Assembly (NCBI GenBank): GCA_043754695.1
Contig: JAYUUV010000009.1
Span: forward strand, 670 to 64,669
Source: Planctomycetota bacterium
GTDB taxonomy: Bacteria > Planctomycetota > UBA1135 > GCA-002686595
Reading direction: 5' to 3'
Length of the DNA: 64,000 nt
Part shown: one piece after another, positions 17,101 through 53,299 of the stretch
Layout of the letters: each line of letters begins with the position of its first letter
Position numbering within the stretch: position 1 is the stretch's first letter
The notes under the pieces: generated by a model
Database searches by the model: none
Told to the model about the DNA's origin: nothing
What the model saw: the letters and a program-made list of their open reading frames with translations, nothing else
Translations under genes and position numbers: made by a program

Positions 17101-17885
17101 GAGAGCTCTGCACGCGCGTCGATCGACAGCGTTCCGCTCGGATCCAGTTCGCGCAGGCCCTCGACATCGGTACCGGGCGGCAGCGCGGCCGTCGAAAGCG
17201 GAAAACCCGCCGTCGAAAGGTGCACGGACAGGATTCCCGCTCGCTCCACACGCCCCTGCATGTAGATCGCGGCTTCGCGATTGGCGGAGTCCGCAAGGCT
17301 TGGCGCGAGCACACCGCGCAGTTCCGCTCGGCCATCGGAGTCGTGGATGAACACCGCATCGACGGAACCGAGCGGGACGTCCCCCATGCGCGGATGCGTG
17401 ACGTCGAACTGTACGCCGTAGATTTCGATCGGCGGAAACGCCGCGACGTCGGCGAGGACTTGCGGCGGCGCCGCCCGCGGGCCGGAGTCCGCGCCGGCGC
17501 CCAGCGCGGCGAGCGCGTCGAACAATTCCGTCGAGAGCCGCACACGTCCACCGTCGATACGCACGTGCTTCACGCGCCGCGGCGGCGGCGCGAAGGGCGA
17601 GAGAATCAGGGTCGCGCGGTTGATGCGCGCCAGCCGGCCGTCGACCCCCAGCGTCAGTCCATGCAGCGTCAGCGCCGGAGTGAACCAGTCGAGCTCGATG
17701 TCCTCGACGTCGAAGTCCGTTCCGCTTTGCCCCAGCTCGCCGCGCACCCTGCCGCGCAGCATGTCCGCGAGCCAGCCGCTCTTTTCGAGCGTGTAGAGCA
17801 CGACGCCGCAGAACGCCAGCGTGCAGGCCAGCGCGAAACACGTGAACAGCAGCACGCGCCCGAAGATCTCAATCAGCCGCTTCAT
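14106..17885 (-). CDS. AsmA/TamB-family large envelope protein
   Basis: 1259 aa with a single N-terminal TM anchor (VLLFTCFALACTLAFCGVVLYTL), followed by a long beta-rich, Gly/Asp/Arg-rich body. The C-terminal segment …SVSVRGDMSRPQIVLKGAL resembles AsmA-like/TamB C-termini. This call is based on architecture. Confidence 0.6.
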   Translation of the reverse strand: MKRLIEIFGRVLLFTCFALACTLAFCGVVLYTLEKSGWLADMLRGRVRGELGQSGTDFDVEDIELDWFTPALTLHGLTLGVDGRLARINRATLILSPFAPPPRRVKHVRIDGGRVRLSTELFDALAALGAGADSGPRAAPPQVLADVAAFPPIEIYGVQFDVTHPRMGDVPLGSVDAVFIHDSDGRAELRGVLAPSLADSANREAAIYMQGRVERAGILSVHLSTAGFPLSTAALPPGTDVEGLRELDPSGTLSIDARAELSLDPKTPSSLALRARLVAGSLTRAASRLALRDLNIDLEANCKVEADRGWFDPRSWSARAAGRGRWRDSELDAFARFGQAAGPQRSLSAELSIKSCEISPDSLAELGLWTLASESFHALAPQGKADLAIAAALDREQRWSGAVDVRLNGDFRATYVGFEPHPGGMRQGFPVPVQNLRGRVAAAFDASQARAFQVGLLELVGNPVDDGNGKALSQVDGLIAAALKTANTPGMPEVVLDFRGQGLNVGTPMRKGVEGLKGTAWIWPAFRPAAGTADCIGRLISDAASGGTAGHFEVYPKDLQLTWEGLPIALDHGQGRIDLEIDPRALFGISFDVAGTTPTAESVHVLGRVQEDPTIVLALHDAEHPIVPKIDEHDLLMDFDVAVRGMALRGSDREVIAATWPGVGKALDMFQPSGKADVNLRAARGRPGDSIAFRVEIEPRQVQLTPTSFSTPTRNVQGRVVVRGSEGGRAGVSSFTTRIAPLIGEWPQDARVACVATFGDSGTDRIEVAGAGIDLTNRGLVGAFREAFAGGSGGRGFDLQALSIDGRIDFNADVSISTPAVGPLRNDGVYRVFLRDNSFRTETSGGFGLSGLWGELVQREGVLTGEHILARLGSTAVTLNDARFVEENGAVHFTTGVQARGVPLDREHLSLFLDPDTVSAAIDRLHLSGWIDFENAKLDFFGKSERGNPKLVLSGDVRPRDAYVDLGLPLSIHRAQVELSELVLEAGHVRAWARVDGLDGSIANRKLQSARMLVTYIQPRLSILDLSGELEGGRIGDLAAVNGPDERARTSASGPAFTMDLLDPYRFELGLALRDVLLEGLLRGMFQSEFADTGYLDAEIRLEGSLEKLTGIVGDGWVHMRDTRLWSIPVMRDLLSQLGLDSSAVFERMKSRFSLGGGVIRMDAIHLESPLVQLVGSGTLDLDGRLNHDLFVRYSLVDRLGPLTRLVYWIQNNLLSVSVRGDMSRPQIVLKGALSFFQSTEHGKRELPLPGLSPLPTRF

Positions 17886-29465: not shown

Positions 29466-29521
29466 ACACTTAAATATCTACAGCTACATATGTTAGGAGA
29501 ATATTAGAGAGCAAGAACATA
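29466..29521. promoter_or_regulatory. AT-rich island in a divergent intergenic region (candidate promoter/UP-element/nucleoid-protein site)
   Basis: ACACTTAAATATCTACAGCTACATATGTTAGGAGAATATTAGAGAGCAAGAACATAG is roughly one-third GC by hand count, in a window that is otherwise about two-thirds GC. It lies 30 nt upstream of the sigma-factor ORF. No confident -35/-10 assignment was possible. Confidence 0.35.
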
Positions 29522-29551
29522 GACCGGCACGCGCTCTGCACTTCATGCGCC

Positions 29552-30343
29552 ATGGTCACCACCCTTCGCGCCGTGCCCGGCTTCGGTTCGGGCTCCCTGG
29601 CGGGCTTGGCGCTGCCAGCTCCTATCCGCCGCAGCCTGCTTTCCCGGGGTGTGCTGCTCGAGAGCCGCCCAGGCGAAGCCCCGACCACTTTCGCCGAGCG
29701 GATCGACACGGCCTTGATGGCCCTGTTCCGTGACACGCACGATTCCGAGTGTTTCGAGGCCCTCTATCAGCGCACATCGGCTGCTGTGGTCGACTGGCTT
29801 CGCCGCCTGATGGGGCAGCGGCGCGCCGGAGTCGATCCGCTGGATGTCCTGCAGGACACGTTCGTCAACGTGTACCAGTACTCCACCCGCTTTCGCGACG
29901 AACGGCCGGACAGTTTCCGAGTCTGGGTGCGGACGATCGCCTCGAACGCGTTGCGGCGTGCACGCTCTCAGGTGCCGCGGCGACCCGAAGAGCATGAACT
30001 CAACGCCAGAGCGGAGCCCGCGGCCCCACGTGCCGAACCCGCGCGTCGGCTCGACGAAGAAGAAGAACAGCGCCGGCTTGCAGTGGCCTGGATGCTCTTC
30101 CTCGACCACTACGCCCGGGCCTACGCGAGCCTGGCCGCGCGCGATCAAGCTGCGCTCGCCCTCGTGGAACTCGAGCGGCTCAGCTACGCGCAAGCCGGCG
30201 AGCGGCTCTCGGTGGGCGCCTCCAATATGAAAATGATCATGTTCCGGGCGCGCCAGCGCCTGATCGGGCGCATGAATCACTCGCTGGGCTGCGCTCGGCA
30301 GGAGACGCCGCGCAAGGCAGCGGCGCTTCTGGCTGTTGGATAG
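29552..30343 (+). CDS. ECF-type RNA polymerase sigma-70 family factor
   Basis: Region 2 is FEALYQRTSAAVVDWLRRL…LQDTFVNVYQ…FRVWVRTIASNALRR. Region 4 is LALVELERLSYAQAGERLSVGASNMKMIMFRARQRL. An alternative start at the ATG at 29717 (MALFRDTHD…) would give a more typical ~208-aa protein. Confidence 0.85.
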   Translation: MVTTLRAVPGFGSGSLAGLALPAPIRRSLLSRGVLLESRPGEAPTTFAERIDTALMALFRDTHDSECFEALYQRTSAAVVDWLRRLMGQRRAGVDPLDVLQDTFVNVYQYSTRFRDERPDSFRVWVRTIASNALRRARSQVPRRPEEHELNARAEPAAPRAEPARRLDEEEEQRRLAVAWMLFLDHYARAYASLAARDQAALALVELERLSYAQAGERLSVGASNMKMIMFRARQRLIGRMNHSLGCARQETPRKAAALLAVG

Positions 30344-30397
30344 CCCACCGGCCGATCCTCGGACCCATCGGGGGCCGCTGCTCGCTACTCTGGGTCG

Positions 30398-31687
30398 GTG
30401 AACATTCCGGCAGTGCGCACGATCGACCTGCTCGTCCACTCCGCCGGGGAATTGTGCACGGCCATCGGCACACAGCCGCGCGGCGGATTGGACCTGGGCG
30501 CGATCCGCTGTGTCAGCGACGCGGCCGTTGCGGTCGATGCCGGCCGTGTGCTGGCCGTCGGTCCCACGGCAAAGTTGCGGCGCGAATTCTTGGCGCGTGC
30601 CGAACTCGATGCCGAAGGCGGGCTGGTTCTGCCCGGATTCGTCGATGCGCACACGCATCCGGTCTTCGCCGAGGGTCGCGAGGACGAATTCGAGTTGCGC
30701 ACGGCGGGCAAGAGCTACGTCGAGATCGCCGCGCTGGGCGGCGGAATCCTCTCCAGCGTGCGCGGCGTGCGCGCCGCATCGAAAGATCGCCTGCTCGAGC
30801 TCGTGCAGGCGCGTCTGGAGCGCTTCGTGGACCTGGGCACGACCACGATCGAAGCCAAGAGCGGTTATGGGCTTTCGTTGGAGGCTGAGCTCAAGTCACT
30901 GGAAGTGCTCGCCGCATTGCGCGCGCGCGGTCCGATCGACATCGCGCCGACCTTTCTTGGCGCCCACGAAGTCCCCGAGGAATTTCGCGGGCGCAAATCG
31001 GCCTACGTCGATCTGCTGCTCGAGGAATGCCTGCCGCGCGTGGCTGAATTGAAGCTGGCCGAATACGCCGACGTTTTCACGGAAAGTCACGTCTTCGATC
31101 TGGCCGATTCGCGGCGCCTGATGGAGCGCGCGCGCGCACTGGGCCTGGGTCTGCGCATGCACGTCGATCAACTCACTTGCCTGGGCGGAGCCGAGCTTGC
31201 CGCGGAACTGCGCGTCAGCTCCGCCGATCACCTGGAGTTCGTCAGCGACGGCGGGATCCGGGCACTGGCGGCGAGCGCCGTCGTTCCCGTGCTGTGCCCG
31301 CTCGTTCCGCTCTACCTGCGGATCGAGCGCGAGGCGCCGGCGCGGCGCATGATCGACGCCGGTTTGCCCGTGGCGATCTCGACCGACTACAACCCCGGTA
31401 GCTGCCCGCAACAGAGTCTCGCGCAGGTGATGACCTGGGCTGCGCTGCGCTACCGGATGAGTTCGGCCGAGTGTTTGACTGCGGCGACGCTGAATCCCGC
31501 CTGCTCGCTGGGCCGCGGCGACGAGATTGGCACGCTCGAGCCGGGCAAACGCGCCGATCTGGTTATCTTCTCCTGCCCGAACTTGCGCCGGCTGGTCAGC
31601 GAGTTCGCTTCGAGCCCCGTGCGCGCGGTCGTCGTGCGCGGCCGCGTGGTTCGCGGTAGCAGTCGTGTGCGCGTGCCTGGTCCCTGA
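30398..31687 (+). CDS. hutI: Imidazolonepropionase
   Basis: LVLPGFVDAHTHPVF…GKSYVEIAALGGGILSSV…TTTIEAKSGYGL…TFLGAHEVP…ADHLEF…ISTDYNPGS…GTLEPGKRADL is collinear with HutI amidohydrolase motifs. Confidence 0.9.
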   Translation: MNIPAVRTIDLLVHSAGELCTAIGTQPRGGLDLGAIRCVSDAAVAVDAGRVLAVGPTAKLRREFLARAELDAEGGLVLPGFVDAHTHPVFAEGREDEFELRTAGKSYVEIAALGGGILSSVRGVRAASKDRLLELVQARLERFVDLGTTTIEAKSGYGLSLEAELKSLEVLAALRARGPIDIAPTFLGAHEVPEEFRGRKSAYVDLLLEECLPRVAELKLAEYADVFTESHVFDLADSRRLMERARALGLGLRMHVDQLTCLGGAELAAELRVSSADHLEFVSDGGIRALAASAVVPVLCPLVPLYLRIEREAPARRMIDAGLPVAISTDYNPGSCPQQSLAQVMTWAALRYRMSSAECLTAATLNPACSLGRGDEIGTLEPGKRADLVIFSCPNLRRLVSEFASSPVRAVVVRGRVVRGSSRVRVPGP

Positions 31688-31717
31688 GTCGTCCTTTTCC
31701 ACAGAGCCTGTTCATCG

Positions 31718-32611
31718 ATGTCGATCGTCGAGTGCGTTCCCAACTTCAGCGAAGGTCGTCGACCCGAGGTCGTCGATCGCATCGTCGCGGCGCTTGCCTC
31801 GGCGCCCGGCGTGCGCGTGATCGATCGTTCGATGGACGCAGGGCACAACCGCGCCGTGATCACCTTCGTCGGCTCCGATCTCGATGTCGGCGAAGCTGCC
31901 TTCCGTGCCATCCGCGCGGCCGCGGGCGAAATCGACCTGCGCACGCACACCGGCGAACACCCGCGCATCGGCGCGAGCGATGTGGTGCCCTTCGTGCCGG
32001 TCGCCGGCGTGACGCTCGAACGCTGTGTCGAGATCGCCCACGCCTTGGGCGAGCGCGTCGGCCGCGAACTCGAGATCCCTGTCTACTTCTACGAGGCCGC
32101 CGCGCTGATTCCGGCGCGCCGCAATCTTCCCGACGTGCGCAACATCGGCTTCGAGAAGCTCAGCGCTGCCGTGCTCAACGATCCCGCGCGCGCGCCCGAT
32201 CGCGGCCCCGCCAAGCTGCATCCCTCGGCCGGCGCGACCGTGATCGGTGCGCGCCAGTTCCTGATCGCCTACAACGTCAACCTCGAGAGCGCGGATGTCC
32301 AGGTCGCGAAGGAGATCGCGAAAAAGATCCGCGAGAAAGACGGCGGGCTGCCCGGCATCAAGGCCATGGGTTTTTTCCTCGACGATTTGAAGTGCGCCCA
32401 GGTCAGCATGAACGTCTGCGATTTCCAGCGCACCGGCCTGCTGCGTGCCTACCAGGAGATCGAGAAGCTCGCCGCCGAGCGCGGCGTCAAGATTCGCGAA
32501 AGCGAACTTGTCGGACTTGCCCCGCGCGCCGCGCTGGGCGACGGAATCGCCGCGCGCATCCAGTTGCGCGGTTTCGATCCCAAGCGTCAGATCGTGGAGG
32601 AGTTGATCTGA
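31718..32611 (+). CDS. Glutamate formimidoyltransferase
   Basis: MSIVECVPNFSEGRRPEVVDRIV… is the hallmark N-terminus of the formiminotransferase (FtcD N/sub) domain. Length is 297 aa. Confidence 0.85.
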   Translation: MSIVECVPNFSEGRRPEVVDRIVAALASAPGVRVIDRSMDAGHNRAVITFVGSDLDVGEAAFRAIRAAAGEIDLRTHTGEHPRIGASDVVPFVPVAGVTLERCVEIAHALGERVGRELEIPVYFYEAAALIPARRNLPDVRNIGFEKLSAAVLNDPARAPDRGPAKLHPSAGATVIGARQFLIAYNVNLESADVQVAKEIAKKIREKDGGLPGIKAMGFFLDDLKCAQVSMNVCDFQRTGLLRAYQEIEKLAAERGVKIRESELVGLAPRAALGDGIAARIQLRGFDPKRQIVEELI

Positions 32612-32613
32612 AC

Positions 32614-33819
32614 ATGTCGCTTTGCCGCACGTCTCGCGGGGTCCGGCGCGCAGTCGTCGGCTGCGCCCTGATGTTCTTCGCGCTGCTTTGGCCAACGGCC
32701 GGCGCCAGCGCGTACATCGCGCCGCAGACGCCACCACCCGCGAAAGCGCCGCCGACAGTGGACTGCAAGGTCTGCAAAGCCACGGGCATCGTCCCCTGCG
32801 GCGAACATCCCAAGGAAGAATGCGCCTGGGAGAAGAGCGCGCTGTTCTGCAGTTACATCGCCGATTGCCCGGTCTGCAAGGGCACGGGTTTCATCGACTG
32901 CAAGGACTGCGACAATCCCGAGTCCGGCAAGCTGCTCGCGGCCAAGATCGCGGCGCTGCCCAGCCTGCGCGCCGAAGTCGAGAAGTACGACGCGCAGATG
33001 GGACGCAAGCTGCGCAAAGCAGTCTCGACGCATTTCACATTGGTGTGGGAGATCGACAGCCTGAAGGTCGAGAAACGCATCGTCGGCGCGCACGAACTGA
33101 CGCACATTTACCTCGACCGGCTCGAGCAGTTGTTCGCGCTCTATATCGATCTGACCAAGGCGCGGCCGGGCGAAATCGTCAAGCGCCAGAAGGTTTTCGT
33201 CTGGTGGCTGGTCAATGATCAGCAGGAGGCCACGCTGCGTTTTTGTCAGCAGGGTTCGGCCAATGGCGTGAAGCTGATGGGTTCGGAGTCGGCCTACTCG
33301 ATCTGCGGCAACCGCCAGTTCTTCACGACCGACGAGCGCCTGCACCGCAACATCGTGCACAGCGTGACGCACCTCTTGTTCGCGCACGAACAGCCGAGCA
33401 TGTGGATCGGCAACCTCAAGGCCGGCTGGGTCGAAGAGGGCCTGGCCCACGTCATGGAGGACCGCATCTTCGGTATCTGCGACAACTACTGCTACGAGGA
33501 GCAGAACACGAACAACGATTTCCACAGCGGCAAGTACAAGGTCGCCATGCGCAAGATGATCGTCGATGGCAAGTCACCGCCCGTCTCGGACGTGATCGGG
33601 CGCAATACCGATCAGTTGAAGTTGCCCGAGCACGCTGTGGCCATGAGCCTGGTCGACTACCTGCTGCAACGCGAGCCGGGCAAGTTCGATCTGTTCGGGA
33701 AGCGCCTGCGCTCCAAGGTCGCGGTGCGCGATGCACTCCGGGCTGCGTTCGGGATTTCGCCGCTGGAACTGGAGACGGCCTGGAAGGCCTGGGTGCTCGA
33801 GACCTATCCCAAGCAATGA
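32614..33819 (+). CDS. Secreted protein: DnaJ-type CxxCxGxG zinc-finger repeats + DUF1570/peptidase-MA-like domain
   Basis: The ATG at 32614 is 2 nt after the previous stop. It is in frame with the artefactual 695-aa ORF 31732..33819, whose 5' part is out-of-frame read-through of the previous gene. The signal peptide is AVVGCALMFFALLWPTAGASA. The Cys motifs are CKVCKATGIVPC and CPVCKGTGFIDCKDC (nt 32764-32913). Later comes IVHSVTHLLF…WVEEGLAHVMED, which resembles the HExxH…EGLAEY core of DUF1570. Confidence 0.65.
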   Translation: MSLCRTSRGVRRAVVGCALMFFALLWPTAGASAYIAPQTPPPAKAPPTVDCKVCKATGIVPCGEHPKEECAWEKSALFCSYIADCPVCKGTGFIDCKDCDNPESGKLLAAKIAALPSLRAEVEKYDAQMGRKLRKAVSTHFTLVWEIDSLKVEKRIVGAHELTHIYLDRLEQLFALYIDLTKARPGEIVKRQKVFVWWLVNDQQEATLRFCQQGSANGVKLMGSESAYSICGNRQFFTTDERLHRNIVHSVTHLLFAHEQPSMWIGNLKAGWVEEGLAHVMEDRIFGICDNYCYEEQNTNNDFHSGKYKVAMRKMIVDGKSPPVSDVIGRNTDQLKLPEHAVAMSLVDYLLQREPGKFDLFGKRLRSKVAVRDALRAAFGISPLELETAWKAWVLETYPKQ

Positions 33820-35243
33820 TGCTCGCGCTGCTCTTCGCGCTGTGCACGCAGTCGCCGTCCGCGGCGAGCGAGACGCAAAGTGTGCTGGAGCTTGCGATGG
33901 ACGCGCATTTTCGCGTGGCGCGCAGCGAACGCGAACTCGCCTTCTTCGAGCGCTATGCCCGCGCTTCGGATGAAGCCAAGGCGCGCGCGCGCGGCGTGCT
34001 GGAGAGATTGCGCGCGCCCGGAACCGCCAGCGCTGCGCCGAGTTCGTCCCCGGCCGTGGCCAAGGCGCTGCGCGCGCTCGAGACACCTGTGGCAACTCCG
34101 AATGCGGATGCGGCGCGCAGGCGCGAACGCCTCGAGGAACTCGTCGACTCGCTCGACCTTCAGGCGACTCCCGGAATATTCGCGGCAGCGAGTTCGCTCG
34201 AGGGCAAACTCGTGCACATCGCCATCTCGCCGCTCTATCCGCTCAAGGAACGCCCGCAAGTCAGCCTCTCGCTGGTCTGGATCCTGCCCGATGGCTCGGA
34301 ACGACTGGCCTATCGCGGGCTGGTCAAGCCCGCGCTCTTCGGCGGGGCCGGTTTCGGCGTCCAACTCGGTTTCCCAGGCCACGAGCCCGGCACGCGGCGG
34401 CTCGCGATCGAAGTCGAGTGCGACGGCATCAACGTACGCGGAGAGCCCTTCGAACTGCAGTGCGTCGCCGCGCTCGACGAGCGCGCGAAGCAGGTCTTCG
34501 CCGGCCTTGTCGAGCTCGCCGATCCGCGCATGCCGCTCGCGAATTGGATGGCGCTCGACGCGCAGCGCGGACTGCGCACGCTGGCGCGAGTCGATGCCGA
34601 GCAACAACTGTCGCGGCTGGAGAGCAAGGCGAACGCCGCACATGCTTACCCGTGGTTGCTCGCGTTCGCCGCGTCCGAGGGCGATGCGCAGTGGATCTGG
34701 CGTTTGGATCCGCCGGGTGCGCCGCAGGCCACGTTGCTCTTGTTGTGCCCGTCGACGGAACCTGCCGAAGCCAGCCTGTCGCGAGCCGAATGGGCCGGCC
34801 TGGCAGGTTGGCGTGTGCTCTCGATGCACCTGCCGCGCGGCGGCGCGGGCGAAGGCACGACGCAAGAATTGTTCGCGCGTCTCAGTTCCAGGTTGGACGA
34901 AAGCGGCGAAAAGCTGCCGCTGGTCTGCGTCGCGCGCGGCGATACCATCGGCAAGTTCGCCATGGATTTTTACGGCGCGAAATCGCGGCCGTATGACGCG
35001 GAGGTGCTGCTGATGTCGGCAGCGCCCGCGAGCCCGGAGAGCCTTGCGGGCAGCGTGCCGCGCCTGGTGCTCGCTCCGGGCGGCCGGGCAACGCCGGAGG
35101 GCTGCGCGATCGGCCCGCAGACTTGGTGGCTCGACAGTTCCACGCTTGCACTGATCGCCGACTTCGAATTGCCGACGCGTTTGAAGTCGACGCTGCCGCT
35201 GCTGCTTGGAGCGCTGCGCGAGTCATCGAAGGAAGCGAAGTGA
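33816..35243 (+). CDS. Hypothetical secreted protein
   Basis: ATGATG at 33816 overlaps the previous stop (ATGA). The signal-like N-terminus is MMLALLFALCTQSPSAAS. 475 aa, no motif recognised. Confidence 0.55.
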   Translation: MMLALLFALCTQSPSAASETQSVLELAMDAHFRVARSERELAFFERYARASDEAKARARGVLERLRAPGTASAAPSSSPAVAKALRALETPVATPNADAARRRERLEELVDSLDLQATPGIFAAASSLEGKLVHIAISPLYPLKERPQVSLSLVWILPDGSERLAYRGLVKPALFGGAGFGVQLGFPGHEPGTRRLAIEVECDGINVRGEPFELQCVAALDERAKQVFAGLVELADPRMPLANWMALDAQRGLRTLARVDAEQQLSRLESKANAAHAYPWLLAFAASEGDAQWIWRLDPPGAPQATLLLLCPSTEPAEASLSRAEWAGLAGWRVLSMHLPRGGAGEGTTQELFARLSSRLDESGEKLPLVCVARGDTIGKFAMDFYGAKSRPYDAEVLLMSAAPASPESLAGSVPRLVLAPGGRATPEGCAIGPQTWWLDSSTLALIADFELPTRLKSTLPLLLGALRESSKEAK

Positions 35244-36907
35244 GAGGACTTTTCGCCGTACTGATCGCTTTTGCGCTCTGGTTCGTTCCACCGCCGACTC
35301 GCTTCGAGGGCGCGCAAAGTTTGCGGAGCGCTGAAAGTTGCTATCGCATGCGCATGTGCGAGTTGGCGTTGTTCACCGGCGAGAGTCCGCTGCAAGATCG
35401 CCTGCTGGAATGGCGCGCGGGCGAGTACGTTCCCTACGGCGCCCTGGCGCCCGCGGCGAGCGCGTTCCTGCTCGGACGGCTCGTGCCACGTGTGGCGCAG
35501 GCGGTGGAGCAGGGCGATCTCGACGAAGATGCGCTTGCCGACGGAGCGCGGCGCCTGATGCTCGTGCTGGCCTGGATCGCGGCGCTTTCGATCATGTTCG
35601 CAGCCTCCAAGCTCAGGTTGCCTGGGGACCCGACGGCGCAGGCCGGCCCCTGGGTGTTCGCCTGCTCGCTTGGCATCGCGCTCGTCTGGACCGCGCTCGT
35701 GCTTGCGCCCTCCGTCGATGGTGGATCGGTGCGGCCGGCTGTCTGGTCGCTGCTTTTGTGTTCCGCCGTGCTGGGCGGAGCTCTCTTGCTCGCGCGTCCC
35801 CACGAACTCGGAGACCTGATCGGTTTGGCGATCGGTGTCGGCGTGCTTGCCGGCCTCGCGCTTGCGAACGATCCCTTCGCCTGGAACACGGTGCTCGCAC
35901 CGCTGTGCGCGCTGGGCCTGGCCGCGCGCGAACGGCCCAAGAATTTGCGTCGCGACAGCCTGCGCGCGGCGATCTTCTTCAGCGCCACGACGCTGATCGT
36001 GTCGCTGGTGCGAACTCCCTGGCCGGCGGGTACGTCGCCGTGGCCGAGATTCGAGCTCGCTTGGGCAGCGCCATCGCTTTCGTCAGCCGAACTCGCAATC
36101 GACGCGCTGTGCCTTGCGGCAATCGCCTGGCTGTTGCTGCGGGCACGGGACTGCACGCAGCGGCGCACGTTGAGCGTGGTGCTCGTGCTCGGTTTCGTGC
36201 TGCGCATGATCGACGCGCGTTTCGCCGCGGCCCCGCTGGCCGCCGCCGGTTGCGCGCTGGTGTGTTGGACGCAAGCGCTGGCGAGCGACGGCGAGCGCAG
36301 TCCTGTGCGGCGCGCGCTGCCGATCGCCGCCGCCGCCGCAATGCTCGTGGCGATCGCCTGGAACGACAACGCGCCCTACACGACGGCTTCGATCCGTGCG
36401 CTGCGCGAGCTGCGCCAGACCACGCCGTCCGGTGGCGCGTGGAATCATCCGTTGGCCAGGCAGGAGTATGGGATCCTGGCCAATCCCGAATTTGGAGGAA
36501 TGATCGCCTTCCACGCTCGCCGGGCGTCGTGTGGCGCACTGCTTCCCGGCGCCACGGCGAGTGAGGCCGCGCGCAGCACGGCCGGTGCGCTGCTCTGCAA
36601 GTCGATCGAAGAGCTGGCCGCGCGCGCGCGCGAACTCGGCGCGGCCTATGTGATCGTGACGCGCCGCGATCTGGAGCGCCCCGCAGCCTGGCTTGCGCTT
36701 GCGGGGCAGGAAGCCGCGACCTCTGACGGCGTCGTCGCCGGGACGGGAGTGCTGCCCGAATTGCTCGCTCGAACAGAGCTTGCTGGTTTCGAATTGCTGC
36801 GTCGCGTGGCCGCGCCTGGCGACCCAGAGGGTCCGGCTGAGCTGGCGGTTTGGCGGCTCGTCAGGCCCGCGTTCCTGCACGAACCGGCAGCGCTGCGAGC
36901 GCGATAG
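35240..36907 (+). CDS. Polytopic membrane protein, STT3/AglB-like (GT-C fold) with degenerate WWDYG position
   Basis: The GTG at 35240 overlaps the previous stop (GTGA). There are multiple hydrophobic segments over residues ~1-375, then a soluble C-terminal domain. By eye, SAESCYRMRMCELALFTGESPLQDRLLEWRAGEYVPYG resembles the STT3/AglB first-loop block (DxYYhxR…G…D…YPxG). IRALRELRQTTPSGG…QEYGILANPEFGGMIAFH resembles the (L)xxLxxNTP…YGVxSWWDYGHWI block, and …LGAAYVIVT resembles …gvrYVIV. Confidence 0.55.
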   Translation: MRGLFAVLIAFALWFVPPPTRFEGAQSLRSAESCYRMRMCELALFTGESPLQDRLLEWRAGEYVPYGALAPAASAFLLGRLVPRVAQAVEQGDLDEDALADGARRLMLVLAWIAALSIMFAASKLRLPGDPTAQAGPWVFACSLGIALVWTALVLAPSVDGGSVRPAVWSLLLCSAVLGGALLLARPHELGDLIGLAIGVGVLAGLALANDPFAWNTVLAPLCALGLAARERPKNLRRDSLRAAIFFSATTLIVSLVRTPWPAGTSPWPRFELAWAAPSLSSAELAIDALCLAAIAWLLLRARDCTQRRTLSVVLVLGFVLRMIDARFAAAPLAAAGCALVCWTQALASDGERSPVRRALPIAAAAAMLVAIAWNDNAPYTTASIRALRELRQTTPSGGAWNHPLARQEYGILANPEFGGMIAFHARRASCGALLPGATASEAARSTAGALLCKSIEELAARARELGAAYVIVTRRDLERPAAWLALAGQEAATSDGVVAGTGVLPELLARTELAGFELLRRVAAPGDPEGPAELAVWRLVRPAFLHEPAALRAR

Positions 36908-36954: not shown

Positions 36955-39363
36955 ATGGGGAAAGCGCTTCGCGTGGTCCTGGGTGTCCACGCACACTGGA
37001 CCGGTTCGCAGTGGGCCGCCATCGACAACGTCCTGGAGCAGGCGCTCGAGACCGCCCTGTCCGCAGCAAAGCGCCATGGGGCCGCCTGTGCCGTCGATTT
37101 CGACGCGCGCGGGCTCGAGGAATTGGCCGCGCGCTCGCCTGTGGTTCTCGAGCGTCTGCGCGCAGCGCTCTTGGAGCAGCGTGTCGAACTGACCGGTGCC
37201 TGTTACGCGCAACCCTGCGCCGGGTTGAACGGCGGCGAATCCAACATACGCCAACGTGTGCTCGGCGCGCGTGTCGTCCAGCGCTTGCTCGGCCGGCGCG
37301 TGCGCGCGATCTGGGAGGGCGCCCCCTCGATCCACCCGCAACTGCCGCAGATCCACTCAGGCCTGGGCATCCAGGCCGTCGGTCTGGTCCCCGCGATCGA
37401 GGAGTGCAGCAGCGACGTTCCGCTGGATCTGCACGAGTGCTTCGTATGGCAGGGCCCGGATGGAACGCAGCTGCGCGCGCTTGGCGCAAGTTCGCTGTCG
37501 ATGGCCTTCGCGCGCGGTGATTTCGACGCGCAGGTCGACGGGCTGCCCGCCGGCGAGGCTGCCTCCGTACTCATGGCCTGGGTGCCGCAGGATGAGCAGC
37601 GCGCGGCCGAATTCTGGGGCCGCATCGACGCGTTGCGCGCCGATCCGCGGCTTGCCTTCCAGGCAACTGCGTTCAGCGCACTCGTTCGCGATCTGGCGCC
37701 CAGGGCGCAGGGCGAACCGATTCGCATCGGCAACGATGAAGTGTTCCACGGCTACGCGCCCGCCAAGAACGGCGATCTGCTCGGGCGCGGCGTCGCCTGG
37801 TGCGAAGAGCAACTGCTCGCGGCCGAAGCGCTCGCCGCGTTGCTGGGAAGATTGCGCGACGTCGATCGCGAAATGGCGACCTGGCCCGCGTGGGAGCTCG
37901 ACGAATCCTGGCGCGAGTTGTGCATCGCGCAGCACCACTCGATCCCGGCTCGCGAGGGCCGGCTGGCCGCGGTGGCCGAATGTTCGATCGAGCGCTCGCT
38001 CGCGCTGGCGCAGGAGGTCCACGAACGCACGCTGTTTCAACTCGGCCAGAGTGTGCAGGGGCTCGAGGGCGGTCACCTGGTGCTCAATCCGCTGGGCTGG
38101 GCGCGCGATGTGCTGCACGACAGCGGCGTGGCCCGCGCCGTGCCGCCCTTTGGTTACAAGGTCGTCGATCCCTATGAGTTGGACAGCACGCCGCTCGGCC
38201 GCGTGCGCGTGCGCGAAAACGACGAACGCATCGCGCTGGTGCGCGGACGCATGCGCGTCGAGATCGACCGCAGCCGCGGCGTGATCGAGCAAATCTCGAC
38301 ACGCGAATTTCCGGAGGGGCTGCTCGATCCCGCGCGGCCGCTGCTCGATTTTTCGCTCGTGCGCGGCGGGCGAGAAGAAAAATTCCCCGAGGCGGAGGTG
38401 GCGAGTTCGTCGACCGAAGAAGAGGAAACGGACGAGCTGACCATTCGCCGCATTGGCCGCGGAGGCGTCAATCTGACGATCCAGGTCGCGATCGAGCCTT
38501 TGTTCGACGCGGTCTGGATTCGAATCCAGTCCGAGGATCTGCCGCGGCCCGATGCCGGCGCCCAAGCCGGGCTGCGCTGCGTGCTGCGGCCGCGCCTCGC
38601 GGGTGAACTCAAGTTGCGCGCCGACTCGCCCTATGGCGTCGGAGAAATCCGCGCAGAGACTTCGCGCGAGCGTCGCGCACCGCGCGGCGCAGGCCGGAGC
38701 GAACTCGTCGATACACTTCTGCGGCCCTTCACCGCGCTGCGTTTCGCAGACCTGTCCGCCGCAGACGGCCGGCGCGGTGTGCTCTACGTGCACGACGGTG
38801 CACCGTCCTTCGCGCGTATCGATGGGGGCTTCGAGCATTTGCTGTCGACGGTCGATCCTCTGGATCCAGGTTCGTTCGAAAGCGCACTGATGGCGGACCT
38901 GTGGATCGTTCCTCACGCCGGCATGGACGACGCAGCGCGCATGCGCCGCGCGATGGAATGCACGCTGGGCAATCCGCGTTTCATGCAGAGCACGGAAATT
39001 CGCGGCGGTGGGGTGCTGCCCGCGGCGATGGGCGCGCTGTCGGTGAGTCCCGAGCACGTGCTCGCCACGGCTTTTTGGCGCGAGCCGGCCAGCGCGCGCG
39101 AACACGTGGAGCACGCGCTAGGCACGGGCATGGACGCCGTGTTTGCGGTGCGGCTTGTCGAATTCTCTGGTCGCGCGGCCAAGGTCAAGTTGCGCGTCGC
39201 CGGCAGCTTGATGCGCGCCGCGCGCACCGATCTGCTGGGCGAAGTCCTCGAATTGCTTCCTGTCGAGCGCTGCGACGCGGCCTTCGGGCCCGGAGAAGGT
39301 CCCTGGAGCGAGATCAGCCTGGAGCTTGGAGCCAATGCGATCGCGACAATTCACTTCGTGTAG
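36955..39363 (+). CDS. Glycoside hydrolase family 38-like (alpha-mannosidase-like) protein
   Basis: The ATG at 36955 starts MGKALRVVLGVHAHW…. The segment LLEQRVELTGACYAQPCAGLNGGESNIRQRVLGARVVQRLLGRRVRAIWEGAPSIHPQLPQIHSGLGI parallels the GH38 N-domain block (GRxExxGGMWVEPDxNLPSGESLxRQxLxGxRFFxxxFG…WxPDxFGxxxQLPQIxxxxGI). No signal peptide is obvious. Confidence 0.5.
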   Translation: MGKALRVVLGVHAHWTGSQWAAIDNVLEQALETALSAAKRHGAACAVDFDARGLEELAARSPVVLERLRAALLEQRVELTGACYAQPCAGLNGGESNIRQRVLGARVVQRLLGRRVRAIWEGAPSIHPQLPQIHSGLGIQAVGLVPAIEECSSDVPLDLHECFVWQGPDGTQLRALGASSLSMAFARGDFDAQVDGLPAGEAASVLMAWVPQDEQRAAEFWGRIDALRADPRLAFQATAFSALVRDLAPRAQGEPIRIGNDEVFHGYAPAKNGDLLGRGVAWCEEQLLAAEALAALLGRLRDVDREMATWPAWELDESWRELCIAQHHSIPAREGRLAAVAECSIERSLALAQEVHERTLFQLGQSVQGLEGGHLVLNPLGWARDVLHDSGVARAVPPFGYKVVDPYELDSTPLGRVRVRENDERIALVRGRMRVEIDRSRGVIEQISTREFPEGLLDPARPLLDFSLVRGGREEKFPEAEVASSSTEEEETDELTIRRIGRGGVNLTIQVAIEPLFDAVWIRIQSEDLPRPDAGAQAGLRCVLRPRLAGELKLRADSPYGVGEIRAETSRERRAPRGAGRSELVDTLLRPFTALRFADLSAADGRRGVLYVHDGAPSFARIDGGFEHLLSTVDPLDPGSFESALMADLWIVPHAGMDDAARMRRAMECTLGNPRFMQSTEIRGGGVLPAAMGALSVSPEHVLATAFWREPASAREHVEHALGTGMDAVFAVRLVEFSGRAAKVKLRVAGSLMRAARTDLLGEVLELLPVERCDAAFGPGEGPWSEISLELGANAIATIHFV

Positions 39364-39445: not shown

Positions 39446-40324
39446 ATGAAGCTAGCTTTCAAATTGGTCGCATTGGTTCTTCTGCTCGTCGCACCGAGTC
39501 TTGCTGCTCAGCAGCACGGAGAGCTGCGCAGTCTCGCGCCCGATGGGCTCGCGCTCGGCGGCTTCGACCCGGTCAGCTACTTCCCCGCGGGCGGGATGGC
39601 CGCCGCGATTGGCAGCGAGAAGTTCGAGTTCAAACTCGGGCCGGCGCGCTATCGATTCGTCAGTGCCGAGCATCTGGCGTGGTTCAAGAGCGAGACCGAA
39701 CGCTACGAACCGGCGTACGGCGGGTTCGATGCAGCATCGATTGCTGGTGGGGGAAGGAAGCCGGCGAGTCCGCAGTCGTTCAAGGTGGTCGGCGCACGGC
39801 TTTTCCTGTTCGCTGAGCCGACGGAAGTGGGCGCCTTCGACGCGAAGCAGGTCTCCAGCGCCGACGAAGCCTGGAAAAAACTGAGCGGCGAATCCGCGCG
39901 CGGGGTTGCCGCCGACGACGCGCGCGTCGGCGTGAAATGGAATCTCGGCAAGGACCAACTCGCCATCGAAGGCTTCGACCCGGTCAGCTATTTCCCCGAG
40001 GGCGGCGGCTCGCCGGTGAAGGGCGATCCGAAGCTCGAAAGCGTCCTGGACGGCGCGCGCTATCGGTTTGCGAGCGCCGCGCACCAGAAATGGTTTTTGG
40101 CCGAGCCTGCGCGCTACCGCCCGAAGTACGGCGGCTGGTGCGCCTATGCCATGGTCGACGGCGACGACGTCGAAGTCGATCCGAAGTCCTTCCTGATCGA
40201 GCACAGCCGGCTCTTGCTTTTCTACAAGGGCTTCTTGGCCGACACGCGCGCGAAGTGGTTGCCCAAGGCGCAGGAATTCGCGCCGAAGGCGGACGCCGCG
40301 TGGGCGAAGCACGCGCTCAAGTGA
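39446..40324 (+). CDS. Secreted tandem YHS-domain-like protein
   Basis: The ATG at 39446 gives the signal peptide MKLAFKLVALVLLLVAPSLAA. There are two repeats of GFDPVSYFP…G…ARYRF(V/A)SA(E/A)H…WF…P.RY.P.YGG. Only the second repeat has the YGGWCAY Cys. Confidence 0.7.
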   Translation: MKLAFKLVALVLLLVAPSLAAQQHGELRSLAPDGLALGGFDPVSYFPAGGMAAAIGSEKFEFKLGPARYRFVSAEHLAWFKSETERYEPAYGGFDAASIAGGGRKPASPQSFKVVGARLFLFAEPTEVGAFDAKQVSSADEAWKKLSGESARGVAADDARVGVKWNLGKDQLAIEGFDPVSYFPEGGGSPVKGDPKLESVLDGARYRFASAAHQKWFLAEPARYRPKYGGWCAYAMVDGDDVEVDPKSFLIEHSRLLLFYKGFLADTRAKWLPKAQEFAPKADAAWAKHALK

Positions 40325-52757: not shown

Positions 52758-52880
52758 GGGGCCTAGTTTGCCGCCGCGTGCGGCCTGGCGCGAACCCTGA
52801 CGAAAAGCCGCGTAGATTTCTCCAACGCTGCTTCAACCGGCCCGTAGCGACTGCGGCGCTCAGGCGTCCACCCCCCTCAG

Positions 52881-53270
52881 ATGTCACGACGAAGTTCTTC
52901 TCGCCCGACCGACGCCGAACTGGAGATCCTGCGGATCCTTTGGCGACGGGGTACGATCTCCGTGCGCGATGTCCACGATGAGCTCAATCTGACCCGGCCG
53001 ACCGGCTATACCACGGCGTTGAAACTGTTGCAGATCATGACCGACAAGGGCTTGGTGCGCCGAGACGAGTCGAGCCGTGCCCACCTGTACCAGGCGGTCG
53101 AGTCGCAGGAGGGCACGCAGGGCAAGCTGGTGGCGGATCTGGTCGAACGCGCCTTTGGAGGATCGGCGTCGGACTTGGTCCAGCGCGCGCTCAGCCAATC
53201 GCAGGCGCGCCCCGACGAATTGGCCACGATTCGCTCGCTGATCGAGGATCTCGAACGCCGCGGGTCCTGA
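52881..53270 (+). CDS. BlaI/MecI/CopY-family transcriptional repressor
   Basis: LEILRILWRRGTISVRDVHDEL…GYTTALKLLQIMTDKGLVRRDESSRAHLYQA is the winged-helix Penicillinase_R signature. Length is 129 aa. Confidence 0.85.
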   Translation: MSRRSSSRPTDAELEILRILWRRGTISVRDVHDELNLTRPTGYTTALKLLQIMTDKGLVRRDESSRAHLYQAVESQEGTQGKLVADLVERAFGGSASDLVQRALSQSQARPDELATIRSLIEDLERRGS

Positions 53271-53299
53271 AGGCCATGGCGCCGGGCTGAAGTTCGAGC

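What the first reader, a model, noticed from the sequence alone, without database searches (positions are those of the whole stretch)
35240..36907. STT3/AglB-like membrane protein in which the catalytic WWDYG position reads ANPEFG
Seen in sequence:
- Residues 30-67 (nt 35327-35440) read SAESCYRMRMCELALFTGESPLQDRLLEWRAGEYVPYG.
- Residues 386-425 read IRALRELRQTTPSGGAWNHPLARQEYGILANPEFGGMIAFH, with the YGIL…AFH part at nt 36467-36514.
- These are followed by …ELGAAYVIVTRRD.

Established knowledge: oligosaccharyltransferases of the STT3/AglB/PglB family have an acidic DxYY-type block plus a YPxG block in the first external loop. After the last TM they have an …L…NTP… segment followed by the WWDYG motif that binds the acceptor sequon. 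Soon after that comes a …YV(I/V)V strand.

Inference: the order and spacing of these three blocks match by eye. However, the first acidic residue and the WWDYG residues are replaced, and the TM domain (~375 aa) is shorter than in characterised OSTs. The protein could be an OST homologue with changed acceptor specificity, a different GT-C activity, or a non-catalytic paralogue.
Basis: partly seen in the sequence, partly recalled or inferred. Interest (0 to 1): 0.65.

Follow-up and report, generated by a model that had tools for sequence, protein, structure and literature searches.

The report
Reduced AglB/STT3-like membrane protein, catalytic motifs lost
This gene from a Planctomycetota bacterium encodes a real but stripped-down relative of the enzyme that attaches sugar chains to proteins; it has lost most of the residues that enzyme needs, so it probably does something different or no longer catalyses anything.

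Summary
ORF 35240-36907 (+) encodes a 555-aa membrane protein containing the quoted peptides.

Homology is shown three ways:
- A high-confidence AlphaFold2 model (pLDDT 89.5) whose 12 best PDB matches are all OST catalytic subunits (AfAglB E=9e-11; yeast Stt3 TM 0.67).
- A profile chain: target family to 657-729-aa planctomycetal Stt3-like proteins (hhalign E=2e-65), and those to A. fulgidus AglB (E=8e-12).
- Shared gene order with the long forms, which makes them positional orthologues.

Against the defining OST motifs, the target compares as follows:
- It keeps the EL1 acidic residue (E32 for D47) and the phosphate-site Arg (R327 for R426).
- D161-H-H163 is replaced by R165-P-A167.
- WWDYG reads N-P-E-F-G, and this is not conserved among its closest relatives.
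- The TM8-TM9 hairpin and the TIXE half of EL5 are deleted, giving 11 TM helices instead of 13.

dN/dS of 0.16-0.31 shows the gene is still under selection. Canonical N-X-S/T glycosylation is very unlikely. The likely alternatives are an altered, metal-independent GT-C activity or a non-catalytic role. It is a new variant of a known kind, of moderate interest.

The parts
35240..36907 (+). Gene for the 555-aa reduced AglB/STT3-like GT-C membrane protein (GTG start, TAG stop)
   Evidence: ORF and translation. Five close homologues of the same length. AF2 model with pLDDT 89.5. Foldseek best hits are OST catalytic subunits.
35240..36358 (+). Transmembrane domain, residues 1-373. It has 11 predicted TM helices: 2-15, 96-123, 137-158, 166-184, 190-210, 212-231, 234-256, 282-304, 306-324, 333-350 and 355-373. 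Topology is N-in, C-out.
   Evidence: Helices are from the AF2 secondary structure and hydropathy. K/R-rich short loops at 124-136, 185-189, 231-234, 304-306 and 350-355, read from the sequence, lie on the cytoplasmic side.
35327..35440 (+). EL1 block, residues 30-67. E32 aligns with AfAglB D47 (first DXD), R38 with R53, E41 with E56, and D53 with the D of 'WFD' (invariant in all 70 aligned relatives). A P65-Y-G67 motif follows.
   Evidence: hhalign A4 vs AfAglB, A4 vs long group, long group vs AfAglB. Invariance.
35723..35746 (+). EL2 relic G162-S-V-R165-P-A167-V-W169. It sits at the position of the second DXD motif (AfAglB G-F-N-D161-H-H163-I-W; yeast G-S-Y-D166-N-E168).
   Evidence: HMM alignment to yeast Stt3, hhalign to AfAglB and motif table. 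The long group keeps D-H-H and some short-group members keep D-P-H.
35867..35884 (+). N210-D-P-F-A-W215, a clade-specific invariant periplasmic motif between TM5 and TM6. Function is unknown; it is a candidate replacement acidic residue.
   Evidence: Invariant in the five close homologues and absent from the long group and AfAglB.
36008..36082 (+). Short periplasmic loop, residues 257-281. It is a fused remnant of EL4 and the N-terminal part of EL5. The TM8-TM9 hairpin and the TIXE-bearing C-terminal half of EL5 are missing here.
   Evidence: hhalign A4 vs long group places a gap of about 110 residues here, covering two hydrophobic segments and FMDVVGESRPL (VVGE aligns with TIAE).
36212..36223 (+). 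D325-A-R327-F328. R327 aligns with AfAglB R426, which lies close to the dolichol-phosphate phosphate.
   Evidence: HMM alignment 'darf' to 'QNRF' and hhalign QRRF to QNRF. The role of R426 is stated in PMC8342417.
36359..36904 (+). C-terminal periplasmic alpha/beta domain, residues 374-555, of the AglB core type
   Evidence: Foldseek match to the AglB-S2 C-terminal domain 3vu0, TM(target) 0.74. A4 profile hit to 3vgp. 13 of 70 relatives hit Pfam AglB_core-like.
36401..36430 (+). L388-R-E-L-R392-Q-T-T-P-S397, counterpart of AfAglB L-T-W-M-R-E-N-T-P
36482..36496 (+). N415-P-E-F-G419 at the WWDYG position. The following F424-H-A-R427-R428 aligns with AfAglB V-A-H-R-M-P.
   Evidence: Alignments. 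Close relatives read NPRAAG, NPGSAG, NPGLAG or PPALAG, so E-F is not conserved.
36647..36679 (+). Y470-V-I-V-T-R-R-D477-L-E-R480: a beta-strand followed by the position of the DK/MI motif. The long group reads Y-V-V-V-T-P-R-M-V-x-D.
   Evidence: (strand 468-474). Assignment to the DK/MI motif is inferred, not tested.
32614..33819 (+). Conserved operon partner 1: a 401-aa exported protein with two CxxCxGxG zinc-ribbon motifs and an HExxH (H-E-L-T-H) peptidase-MA-like domain
   Evidence: Weak Pfam Peptidase_MA_2 hit. 42% identical to the protein at the same position next to a long-form Stt3-like gene. Synteny.
33816..35243 (+). Conserved operon partner 2: a 475-aa protein with an N-terminal signal-like segment and no family hit. 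It overlaps both neighbouring genes by 4 nt.
   Evidence: No hits. Homologues sit at the same position in L009 (34% identity) and L013 (31% over the N-terminal half).
36955..39363 (+). Downstream GH38-like (alpha-mannosidase-like) 802-aa protein with no signal peptide, 47 nt after the target's stop codon
   Evidence: Pfam Glyco_hydro_38N, 1.3e-5. PDB alpha-mannosidase 7uft, E=0.004. Same position in L001, L003, L009 and L012 but absent in L013 and L014.

Best explanation
Shown: the gene encodes an inner-membrane GT-C protein of a Planctomycetota bacterium that descends from an archaeal-type oligosaccharyltransferase (AglB/STT3, CAZy GT66). It is the positional orthologue of 657-729-aa planctomycetal Stt3-like proteins. 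Those long forms keep the catalytic set: the EL1 Asp, the EL2 D-H-H, an EL5 V-V-G-E (TIXE type) and the phosphate-site Arg. The lineage leading to the window first deleted the TM8-TM9 hairpin and the TIXE half of EL5, going from 13 to 11 TM helices. The window's own clade then replaced D-H-H with R-P-A and let the WWDYG position drift to NPEFG.

Inferred: it can no longer perform metal-dependent transfer to Asn-X-Ser/Thr. It keeps the EL1 carboxylate (E32), the phosphate-binding Arg (R327), a clade-conserved Arg (R165) where the metal ligand used to be, new invariant periplasmic motifs (NDPFAW, LDEDA, GAWNH) and purifying selection. I therefore commit to this reading: it still binds a polyprenyl-phosphate-linked sugar at the periplasmic face and carries out a metal-independent, non-sequon glycosyl transfer. 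In this model E32 acts as the base or orienting carboxylate, and R165 and R327 neutralise the phosphate leaving group. The acceptor is probably one of the two co-translated exported partner proteins or another envelope component.

Confidence differs by claim. Homology and motif loss are about 0.95 certain. 'Not a canonical OST' is about 0.9. The altered-but-active mechanism is about 0.45.
For: - Fold: the AF2 model has pLDDT 89.5 and pTM 0.90. Foldseek ranks 1-12 are all AglB or Stt3/STT3A/B chains (E from 9e-11 to 4e-7, TMq 0.56-0.67). DPY19, PglB, AftA and ArnT rank lower, and the C-terminal domain matches AglB-S2 with TMt 0.74.
- Profile chain: A4 vs long group gives 100% probability, E=1.9e-65. 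Long group vs AfAglB gives 97.5%, E=7.6e-12. The long forms hit TIGR04154 archaeo_STT3 at 5e-47, and short-form P0017 hits it at 9e-15. Among 70 relatives, 13 hit AglB_core-like and 9 hit STT3. The A4 profile's top PDB hits are AglB and Stt3.
- Orthology: the same RecO / CNNM / sigma / amidohydrolase / 401-aa / ~450-aa / Stt3-like gene order occurs around long and short forms.
- Motif map: with motif definitions from PMC8342417.
- Selection: dN/dS is 0.31 against L005 and 0.16 against L007.
- Clade conservation: G162-S-V is invariant, R165 occurs in most clade members, and R327, NDPFAW and GAWNH are invariant.
- Some short forms lacking TIXE still conserve D-x-H. This suggests the deletion alone did not end ligand or metal-site function.
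Against: - Two of three metal ligands and the TIXE Glu are missing. In AfAglB, alanine scanning of the TIXE segment sharply reduces activity (PMC8342417).
- The WWDYG-equivalent residues vary even among 50-72% identical relatives.
- The protein evolves faster than its neighbours: 26% identity against 34% and 43% in the same pair of loci. Its dN/dS is 0.31, against 0.16-0.20 for the neighbours, and is highest (0.39) in the C-terminal domain. All of these points fit loss of catalysis equally well.
- R165 is Ser in P0003, and E32 is Ser or Gln in P0003 and P0009.
- No glycan-assembly genes lie in the 64-kb window.
- I could not inspect model coordinates, so the spatial clustering of E32, R165 and R327 is inferred from the homology alignment only.
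Confidence: 0.45

Rival explanations
1. Non-catalytic relic (pseudoenzyme). The protein has lost glycosyltransferase activity and is kept as a membrane scaffold, anchor or receptor for the conserved exported partner proteins (the 401-aa HExxH/zinc-ribbon protein and the 475-aa protein). It may still bind a lipid-linked glycan.
For: - D161-H-H163 is replaced by R-P-A, TIXE is deleted and WWDYG has drifted without conservation.
- dN/dS is higher and divergence faster than in neighbouring genes, most of all in the C-terminal domain.
- The three-gene module with 4-nt overlaps is retained across deep divergence. This explains purifying selection without requiring catalysis.
Against: - The EL1 carboxylate, the phosphate-site Arg and several small polar periplasmic motifs remain invariant in the clade. 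That is more than a scaffold would need.
- A new Arg is fixed in most clade members at the former metal site.
Confidence: 0.35
2. Lipid-linked-oligosaccharide hydrolase. The protein releases free glycans into the periplasm, an activity known as a side reaction of OSTs. The products would then be imported and trimmed by the downstream cytoplasmic GH38-like mannosidase.
For: OSTs from all three domains hydrolyse LLO in the absence of an acceptor (PMC8342417). The peptide-binding motifs are lost while the phosphate-site Arg is kept. A GH38-like gene lies 47 nt downstream in four related loci.
Against: The GH38-like gene is absent next to the long-form orthologues, so the link is not universal. 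Hydrolysis in known OSTs uses the same metal site that is lost here. No transporter gene lies in the module.
Confidence: 0.08
3. Still a genuine N-oligosaccharyltransferase that recognises an unusual sequon with a rebuilt active site.
For: Overall AglB fold and C-terminal core domain. E-F-G at the D-Y-G positions in this particular protein.
Against: Two metal ligands and the TIXE segment are absent, and every characterised Stt3, AglB or PglB has them (PMC8342417). E-F is not conserved in the closest relatives.
Confidence: 0.05
4. Chance resemblance: an unrelated polytopic membrane protein whose blocks merely look like STT3 motifs.
For: There is no direct Pfam, NCBIfam or PDB sequence hit. hhalign of A4 against the single AfAglB sequence gives only 4% probability.
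Against: Foldseek E=9e-11 with full-length TM 0.64-0.67 to OSTs. The transitive hhalign chain gives E=2e-65 and then 8e-12. P0017 hits TIGR04154 at 9e-15. Synteny is shared with annotated Stt3 proteins.
Confidence: 0.01

Closest known systems
Archaeal oligosaccharyltransferase AglB (A. fulgidus AglB-L, PDB 3WAJ/5GMY/7E9S; NCBIfam TIGR04154 archaeo_STT3; CAZy GT66)
   Same: Best structural match. Both have a GT-C TM domain plus a C-terminal core domain, with collinear blocks: D47-PWYYYR-LIE aligns with E32-SCYRMR-MCE, WFD with Q-D53, QNR426F with DAR327F, LTWMRENTP with LRELRQTTP, and the VAHRMP and YVV strand blocks also correspond.
   Different: The target has 11 TM helices, not 13. D161-H-H163 is R-P-A, the TIXE half of EL5 is deleted, and WWDYG reads NPEFG. 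There is no peripheral AglB_L1 domain. It has 555 aa against 868 aa, and gives no direct profile hit.
Planctomycetal long-form Stt3-like proteins (657-729 aa; e.g. P0026, P0054). JGI names them 'asparagine N-glycosylation enzyme membrane subunit Stt3'. They are uncharacterised.
   Same: Positional orthologues in the same gene order. hhalign E=1.9e-65 over 545 columns. They share LRWMR..TPSPGPWN, HARRP and YVVV blocks with the target.
   Different: The long forms keep D-P-D, D-H-H, V-V-G-E and Q-R-R-F and have two more TM helices plus a full EL5. Their WWDYG position reads x-W-[SG]-[LMY]-G-H, so the Asp is lost there too.
Bacterial PglB (C. lari, PDB 3RCE/5OGL/6GXC)
   Same: Same fold class: Foldseek E=3e-6, TMq 0.55.
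   Different: A more distant match than AglB or Stt3. PglB sits in a pgl glycan-assembly cluster, and no such cluster is present here. All PglB catalytic motifs are present in PglB but mostly absent here.
DPY19 tryptophan C-mannosyltransferase (PDB 7ZLG-7ZLI) and other GT-C-A enzymes (ArnT, AftA)
   Same: Related GT-C folds (E=2e-6 to 4e-5). From general knowledge, these are precedents for STT3-like architecture used with different acceptors and without the OST metal/WWDYG apparatus.
   Different: Lower structural similarity (TMq 0.45-0.56). The target has no Pfam PMT_2 or DPY19 hit, and its C-terminal domain is specifically of the AglB core type.

Membership tests
STT3/AglB/PglB oligosaccharyltransferase (GT66) | GT-C fold: N-terminal polytopic TM domain plus C-terminal extracytoplasmic alpha/beta core domain | tested here: met
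   AF2 pLDDT 89.5. Foldseek top 12 hits are OST catalytic subunits with TMq 0.56-0.67. The C-terminal domain matches 3vu0 with TMt 0.74.
STT3/AglB/PglB oligosaccharyltransferase (GT66) | Direct significant match to family profiles (Pfam PF02516 STT3, PF22627 AglB_core-like, NCBIfam TIGR04154) | tested here: not met
   No hit at E<=10 for the target or its four closest relatives.
STT3/AglB/PglB oligosaccharyltransferase (GT66) | Homology demonstrable through intermediate sequences | tested here: met
   A4 to long group E=1.9e-65. Long group to AfAglB E=7.6e-12. P0017 to TIGR04154 9e-15, and P0026 5e-47. Family scan.
STT3/AglB/PglB oligosaccharyltransferase (GT66) | 13 transmembrane helices | tested here: not met
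   11 helices in the model. The hhalign gap covers two TM segments.
STT3/AglB/PglB oligosaccharyltransferase (GT66) | First DXD motif on EL1 (AfAglB D47; metal ligand and Asn-orienting carboxylate) | tested here: inconclusive
   E32 aligns with D47, so a carboxylate is kept, but as Glu. The position is Ser or Gln in two clade members.
STT3/AglB/PglB oligosaccharyltransferase (GT66) | Second DXD motif on EL2 (AfAglB D161-x-H163; yeast D166-x-E168) | tested here: not met
   R165-P-A167 at these columns.
STT3/AglB/PglB oligosaccharyltransferase (GT66) | TIXE/SVSE motif on a long EL5 loop | tested here: not met
   The segment aligned to TIAE in the long group (VVGE) falls in a deletion in the target family. 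The remaining loop is 25 residues. A clade-conserved E/D at position 281 exists, but it is not positionally equivalent.
STT3/AglB/PglB oligosaccharyltransferase (GT66) | WWDYG motif (Ser/Thr +2 pocket) | tested here: not met
   N415-P-E-F-G419 in the target. Relatives read NPRAAG, NPGSAG and similar variants.
STT3/AglB/PglB oligosaccharyltransferase (GT66) | DGGK / DNXTZNX[T/S] motif after WWDYG | tested here: not met
   The aligned segment reads C-G-A-L-L-P-G-A-T. L-P-G-A is conserved in the clade but is unlike either motif.
STT3/AglB/PglB oligosaccharyltransferase (GT66) | DK or MI motif in the C-terminal domain | tested here: inconclusive
   After the YVIVT strand the target reads R-R-D477-L-E-R480, where the long group has P-R-M-V-x-D. 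Assignment would need a structural superposition, which I could not do.
STT3/AglB/PglB oligosaccharyltransferase (GT66) | Conserved Arg near the lipid-phosphate (AfAglB R426) | tested here: met
   R327 in D-A-R-F aligns with Q-N-R-F and is invariant in the clade.
STT3/AglB/PglB oligosaccharyltransferase (GT66) | Oligosaccharyl transfer to Asn in N-X-S/T | not testable with these tools
   Requires biochemistry or glycoproteomics.
Other GT-C-A families (ArnT/PMT_2, DPY19, AftA) | Best structural or profile match to that family | tested here: not met
   Foldseek ranks them below all OSTs. The target has no Pfam PMT, PMT_2 or DPY19 hit.

The most novel reading that the evidence does not exclude
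Planctomycetota carry an archaeal-derived AglB lineage that forms a dedicated three-gene envelope module with a zinc-ribbon/HExxH protein and a ~450-aa exported protein. Within this lineage the window's clade would have converted the enzyme into a metal-independent GT-C. In that enzyme an arginine (R165) replaces the divalent cation, and the sequon-reading apparatus (TIXE, WWDYG) has been discarded in favour of a single dedicated, non-sequon acceptor. This would be a natural example of OST active-site rewiring.
Probability: 0.15. Interest if true: 0.7.

Novelty: new variant of a known kind. Interest (0 to 1): 0.45.

Why it matters
[quoted passage not shown] Natural homologues that keep the fold and stay under selection after losing most of those motifs are rarely described. 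The graded series found here shows which parts of an OST are dispensable for whatever residual function is selected:
- long forms with full catalytic motifs but an altered WWDYG;
- short forms without TIXE but with D-x-H;
- the window's clade, with R-x-A.

The series also offers candidates for engineering or for finding new GT-C chemistries. In addition, it flags a conserved, unannotated planctomycetal envelope module. Public annotation calls the short forms 'hypothetical protein' or gives them no name, so recognising them as AglB-derived improves annotation. If the protein turns out to be an inactive relic, the finding is of modest, mainly evolutionary, interest.

Tried and rejected
- Direct hmmscan of the target and its four close relatives against Pfam and NCBIfam gave only noise: DUF3792 and TIGR04086 at E of about 2-3.
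- phmmer and the 5-sequence profile against PDB sequences found nothing.
- The word-indexed homologue search found only 5 relatives.
- The first AF2 run, on that shallow alignment, was unusable at pLDDT 50. I did not use it.
- hhalign of the 26-sequence family against the single AfAglB fragment gave E=0.0095 but only 4% probability. I use it for residue mapping only; the significance rests on the two-step chain.
- I considered reading S278-S-A-E281 as a relic TIXE motif. I rejected this because hhalign places the TIXE segment inside the deletion and E281 sits directly at the start of a TM helix.
I rejected it because E32, not A31, is in register with D47.
- Five literature searches for planctomycetal STT3/AglB/PglB or for inactive STT3-like proteins found nothing specific.
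- Pfam scans of the rest of the window found no glycan-assembly cluster, only an unlinked ManC-like gene 21 kb away.
- The 475-aa partner protein has no Pfam, NCBIfam or PDB hit.

Full report
**1. The observation**

The window is 64-70% G+C. It comes from a Planctomycetota bacterium: the only close relatives in GTDB genomes are four Planctomycetota MAGs.

The ORF runs from a GTG at 35240 to a TAG at 36905-36907 and encodes 555 aa. The GTG overlaps the upstream gene's stop codon as GTGA. All quoted peptides are present at the stated nucleotide positions. The second peptide starts at residue 385 rather than 386.

**2. Direct searches fail**

- hmmscan against Pfam and NCBIfam gives nothing meaningful, either for the target or for its four closest relatives.
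- phmmer and a 5-sequence profile against all PDB sequences also give nothing.
- The word-indexed search of 5.8 billion proteins finds only five relatives at 49-72% identity. One of these is truncated.

**3. Homology is nevertheless established**

*Distant relatives.* An exhaustive profile search of 1.84 billion representative proteins found 98 relatives, 40 of them at E<=1e-10.
- Scanning 70 of them against Pfam gives AglB_core-like in 13 and STT3 in 9. The only other recurrent families are related GT-Cs.
- One hit, P0081, is a bona fide AglB. It has STT3, AglB_core and AglB_L1 domains and matches AfAglB at E=1e-23.

*Structure.* With the 70-sequence alignment, AlphaFold2 gives a confident model with pLDDT 89.5 and pTM 0.90. 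The Foldseek search of the PDB returned:
- Ranks 1-12: all OST catalytic subunits. These are A. fulgidus AglB (E=9e-11, TMq 0.64), yeast Stt3 (TMq 0.67) and human STT3A and STT3B.
- Lower ranks: DPY19, PglB (E=3e-6), AftA and ArnT.
- The isolated C-terminal domains of AglB-S2 match with TM 0.74, normalised to the target.

*Profile chain.*
- The 26-member short family that contains the target (A4) aligns to an 11-member group of 657-729-aa proteins with hhalign probability 100% and E=1.9e-65 over 545 columns.
- That long group aligns to AfAglB residues 19-610 with 97.5% probability and E=7.6e-12.
- The long forms hit NCBIfam TIGR04154 (archaeo_STT3) at 5e-47, and a short form (P0017) hits it at 9e-15.
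- The A4 profile's own best PDB hits are AglB and Stt3, though at marginal E-values of 0.007-0.05.

**4. Orthology**

The long and short forms occupy the same genomic slot. The shared order is RecO, CNNM, ECF-type sigma factor, amidohydrolase, (FTCD), a ~400-aa protein, a ~450-480-aa protein, then the Stt3-like gene. The last three genes overlap by 4 nt.

| Protein | Identity between loci |
|---|---|
| ~400-aa partner | 42% (window vs long-form locus L013) |
| ~450-480-aa partner | 31-34% |
| GH38-like downstream gene | 43% (window vs L009) |
| Stt3-like protein | 26% (window vs L009) |

JGI annotates the long forms as Stt3. The short forms are 'hypothetical protein' or unnamed.

**5. Anatomy**

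The model has 11 TM helices, N-in and C-out, with the K/R-rich short loops on the cytoplasmic side. A C-terminal alpha/beta domain spans residues 374-555.

Motif definitions are those of Taguchi et al. 2021 (PMC8342417):
- 13 TM helices;
- DXD on EL1 (D47);
- DXD on EL2 (D161-H-H163);
- TIXE on EL5 (E360);
- WWDYG, DGGK and DK/MI in the C-terminal domain;
- R426 near the phosphate.

| AfAglB feature | Target |
|---|---|
| D47-PWYYYR53-LIE56 | E32-SCYRMR38-MCE41, same register |
| WFD | D53, invariant in all 70 relatives |
| G-F-N-D161-H-H163-I-W | G-S-V-R165-P-A167-V-W |
| Q-N-R426-F | D-A-R327-F |
| LTWMRENTP | LRELRQTTP |
| WWDYG | N415-P-E-F-G419 |

The TIXE-equivalent of the long forms is V-V-G-E within FMDVVGESRPL. 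In all short forms this segment and two upstream TM segments fall in a gap of about 110 residues. What remains is a 25-residue loop at residues 257-281.

The family therefore shows a graded loss:
1. Long forms keep D-P-D, D-H-H, V-V-G-E and Q-R-R-F, but read x-W-[SG]-[LMY]-G-H at the WWDYG position.
2. Short forms lack TIXE, but some keep D-P-H and P-D-W-G.
3. The window's clade has R-P/A-x and N-P-x-x-x-G. The E-F of the window's protein is not shared by relatives, which read NPRAAG, NPGSAG, NPGLAG or PPALAG.

**6. Is it still a working gene?**

Nei-Gojobori dN/dS values:

| Comparison | dN/dS |
|---|---|
| Target vs 72%-identical orthologue (L005) | 0.31 |
| Target TM part | 0.27 |
| Target C-terminal domain | 0.39 |
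| Target N-terminal 225 codons vs 88%-identical orthologue (L007) | 0.16 |
| GH38-like neighbour | 0.16 |
| YHS neighbour | 0.20 |

The protein is under purifying selection, but this is more relaxed than for its neighbours. The relaxation is greatest in the domain that reads the sequon in true OSTs.

Clade-invariant polar motifs in periplasmic loops point to a constrained periplasmic surface. These are L94-D-E-D97, G162-S-V, N210-D-P-F-A-W215, W261-P, P267-W-P269, G399-A-W-N-H403, H425-A-R-R428 and L435-P-G437.

**7. Mechanism**

- *Shown:* AglB ancestry, loss of two metal ligands, loss of the TIXE segment and loss of the WWD pocket.
- *Inferred:* canonical metal-dependent Asn-X-Ser/Thr glycosylation is not possible.
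- *My commitment (about 0.45):* the protein still binds a polyprenyl-phosphate-linked sugar and performs a metal-independent transfer to a non-sequon acceptor. E32 would act as the carboxylate. R165 and R327 would replace the cation in neutralising the phosphate. The acceptor may be one of the co-translated exported partners.
- *In favour of this reading:* E32 and R327 are retained, and Arg is fixed at the former Asp position in most clade members. D-x-H also persists in other TIXE-less short forms, which suggests the deletion did not end site function.
- *Main rival (about 0.35):* a non-catalytic scaffold for the conserved module. This explains the drift of the WWDYG position and the faster evolution equally well.
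- *Minor rivals:* an LLO hydrolase coupled to the GH38-like neighbour (0.08), a genuine N-OST with an odd sequon (0.05) and chance resemblance (0.01).

**8. Context**

No glycan-assembly cluster lies in the 64-kb window. The surrounding genes are housekeeping: FtsH, RecO, LptE, DnaJ, nuo/Mrp subunits, alanine racemase and a BlaI/BlaR1-like pair. An unlinked ManC-like gene lies 21 kb away.

The literature holds that bacterial Stt3 homologues nest within Euryarchaeota and were acquired by transfer at least twice (PMC4973528). I found nothing on planctomycetal or motif-less STT3 homologues.

**9. Verdict**

By descent and fold it belongs to the superfamily, but it fails most of the defining catalytic features. 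It should not be annotated as an oligosaccharyltransferase. It is a new variant of a known kind, of moderate interest (0.45).

Noticed in passing
window 36955-39363 (+): GH38-like (alpha-mannosidase-like) 802-aa protein without a signal peptide, 47 nt downstream of the target. It is conserved at this position in four related loci but absent next to the long-form orthologues. Its N-terminus reads V-H-A-H-W-T-G, where the L009 orthologue reads N-H-M-H-W-V-D, so an Asp near the N-terminal His pair may be replaced here too.
   Followed up: partly
window 32614-33819 (+): 401-aa exported protein with two DnaJ-type CxxCxGxG zinc-ribbon motifs followed by an HExxH (H-E-L-T-H) peptidase-MA-like domain. 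It is 42% identical to the protein at the same position in a long-form locus (L013). It has only weak Pfam hits and no NCBIfam hit.
   Followed up: partly
window 33816-35243 (+): 475-aa protein with a signal-like N-terminus (MMLALLFALC...) and no detectable family. It is translationally coupled on both sides by 4-nt overlaps and conserved next to every Stt3-like family member examined. It could be the acceptor or a subunit.
   Followed up: partly
window 39446-40324 (+): Two-repeat YHS domain protein that strongly matches NCBIfam NF041384, 'YHS domain-containing (seleno)protein' (3e-51). This copy appears to carry Cys (GGWCAY) rather than an in-frame TGA. I did not check this further.
   Followed up: no
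window 29474-32611 (+): A run of ECF-type sigma-70 factor, imidazolonepropionase-like amidohydrolase and glutamate formiminotransferase (FTCD) genes lies immediately upstream. It is syntenic in all related loci. Whether the sigma factor controls the Stt3-like module is unknown.
   Followed up: no
window 14109-17885 (-): 1259-aa ORF with coding-like GC3 (0.83) and no Pfam hit at E<=1e-4.
   Followed up: no
related proteins P0026, P0054 and others (loci L010, L013, L014): The long planctomycetal Stt3-like proteins keep all catalytic motifs but read x-W-[SG]-[LMY]-G-H instead of WWDYG. They lack the Asp that binds the +2 Ser/Thr. They may be active OST-type enzymes with a non-canonical acceptor rule and would be worth testing in their own right.
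   Followed up: partly
window 52848-54694 (+): A BlaI/BlaR1-like repressor and M56 sensor-peptidase pair, followed by a thioredoxin-like gene and a cluster of nuo/Mrp-type antiporter-like subunits (55.5-63 kb). This is ordinary chromosomal context.
   Followed up: no
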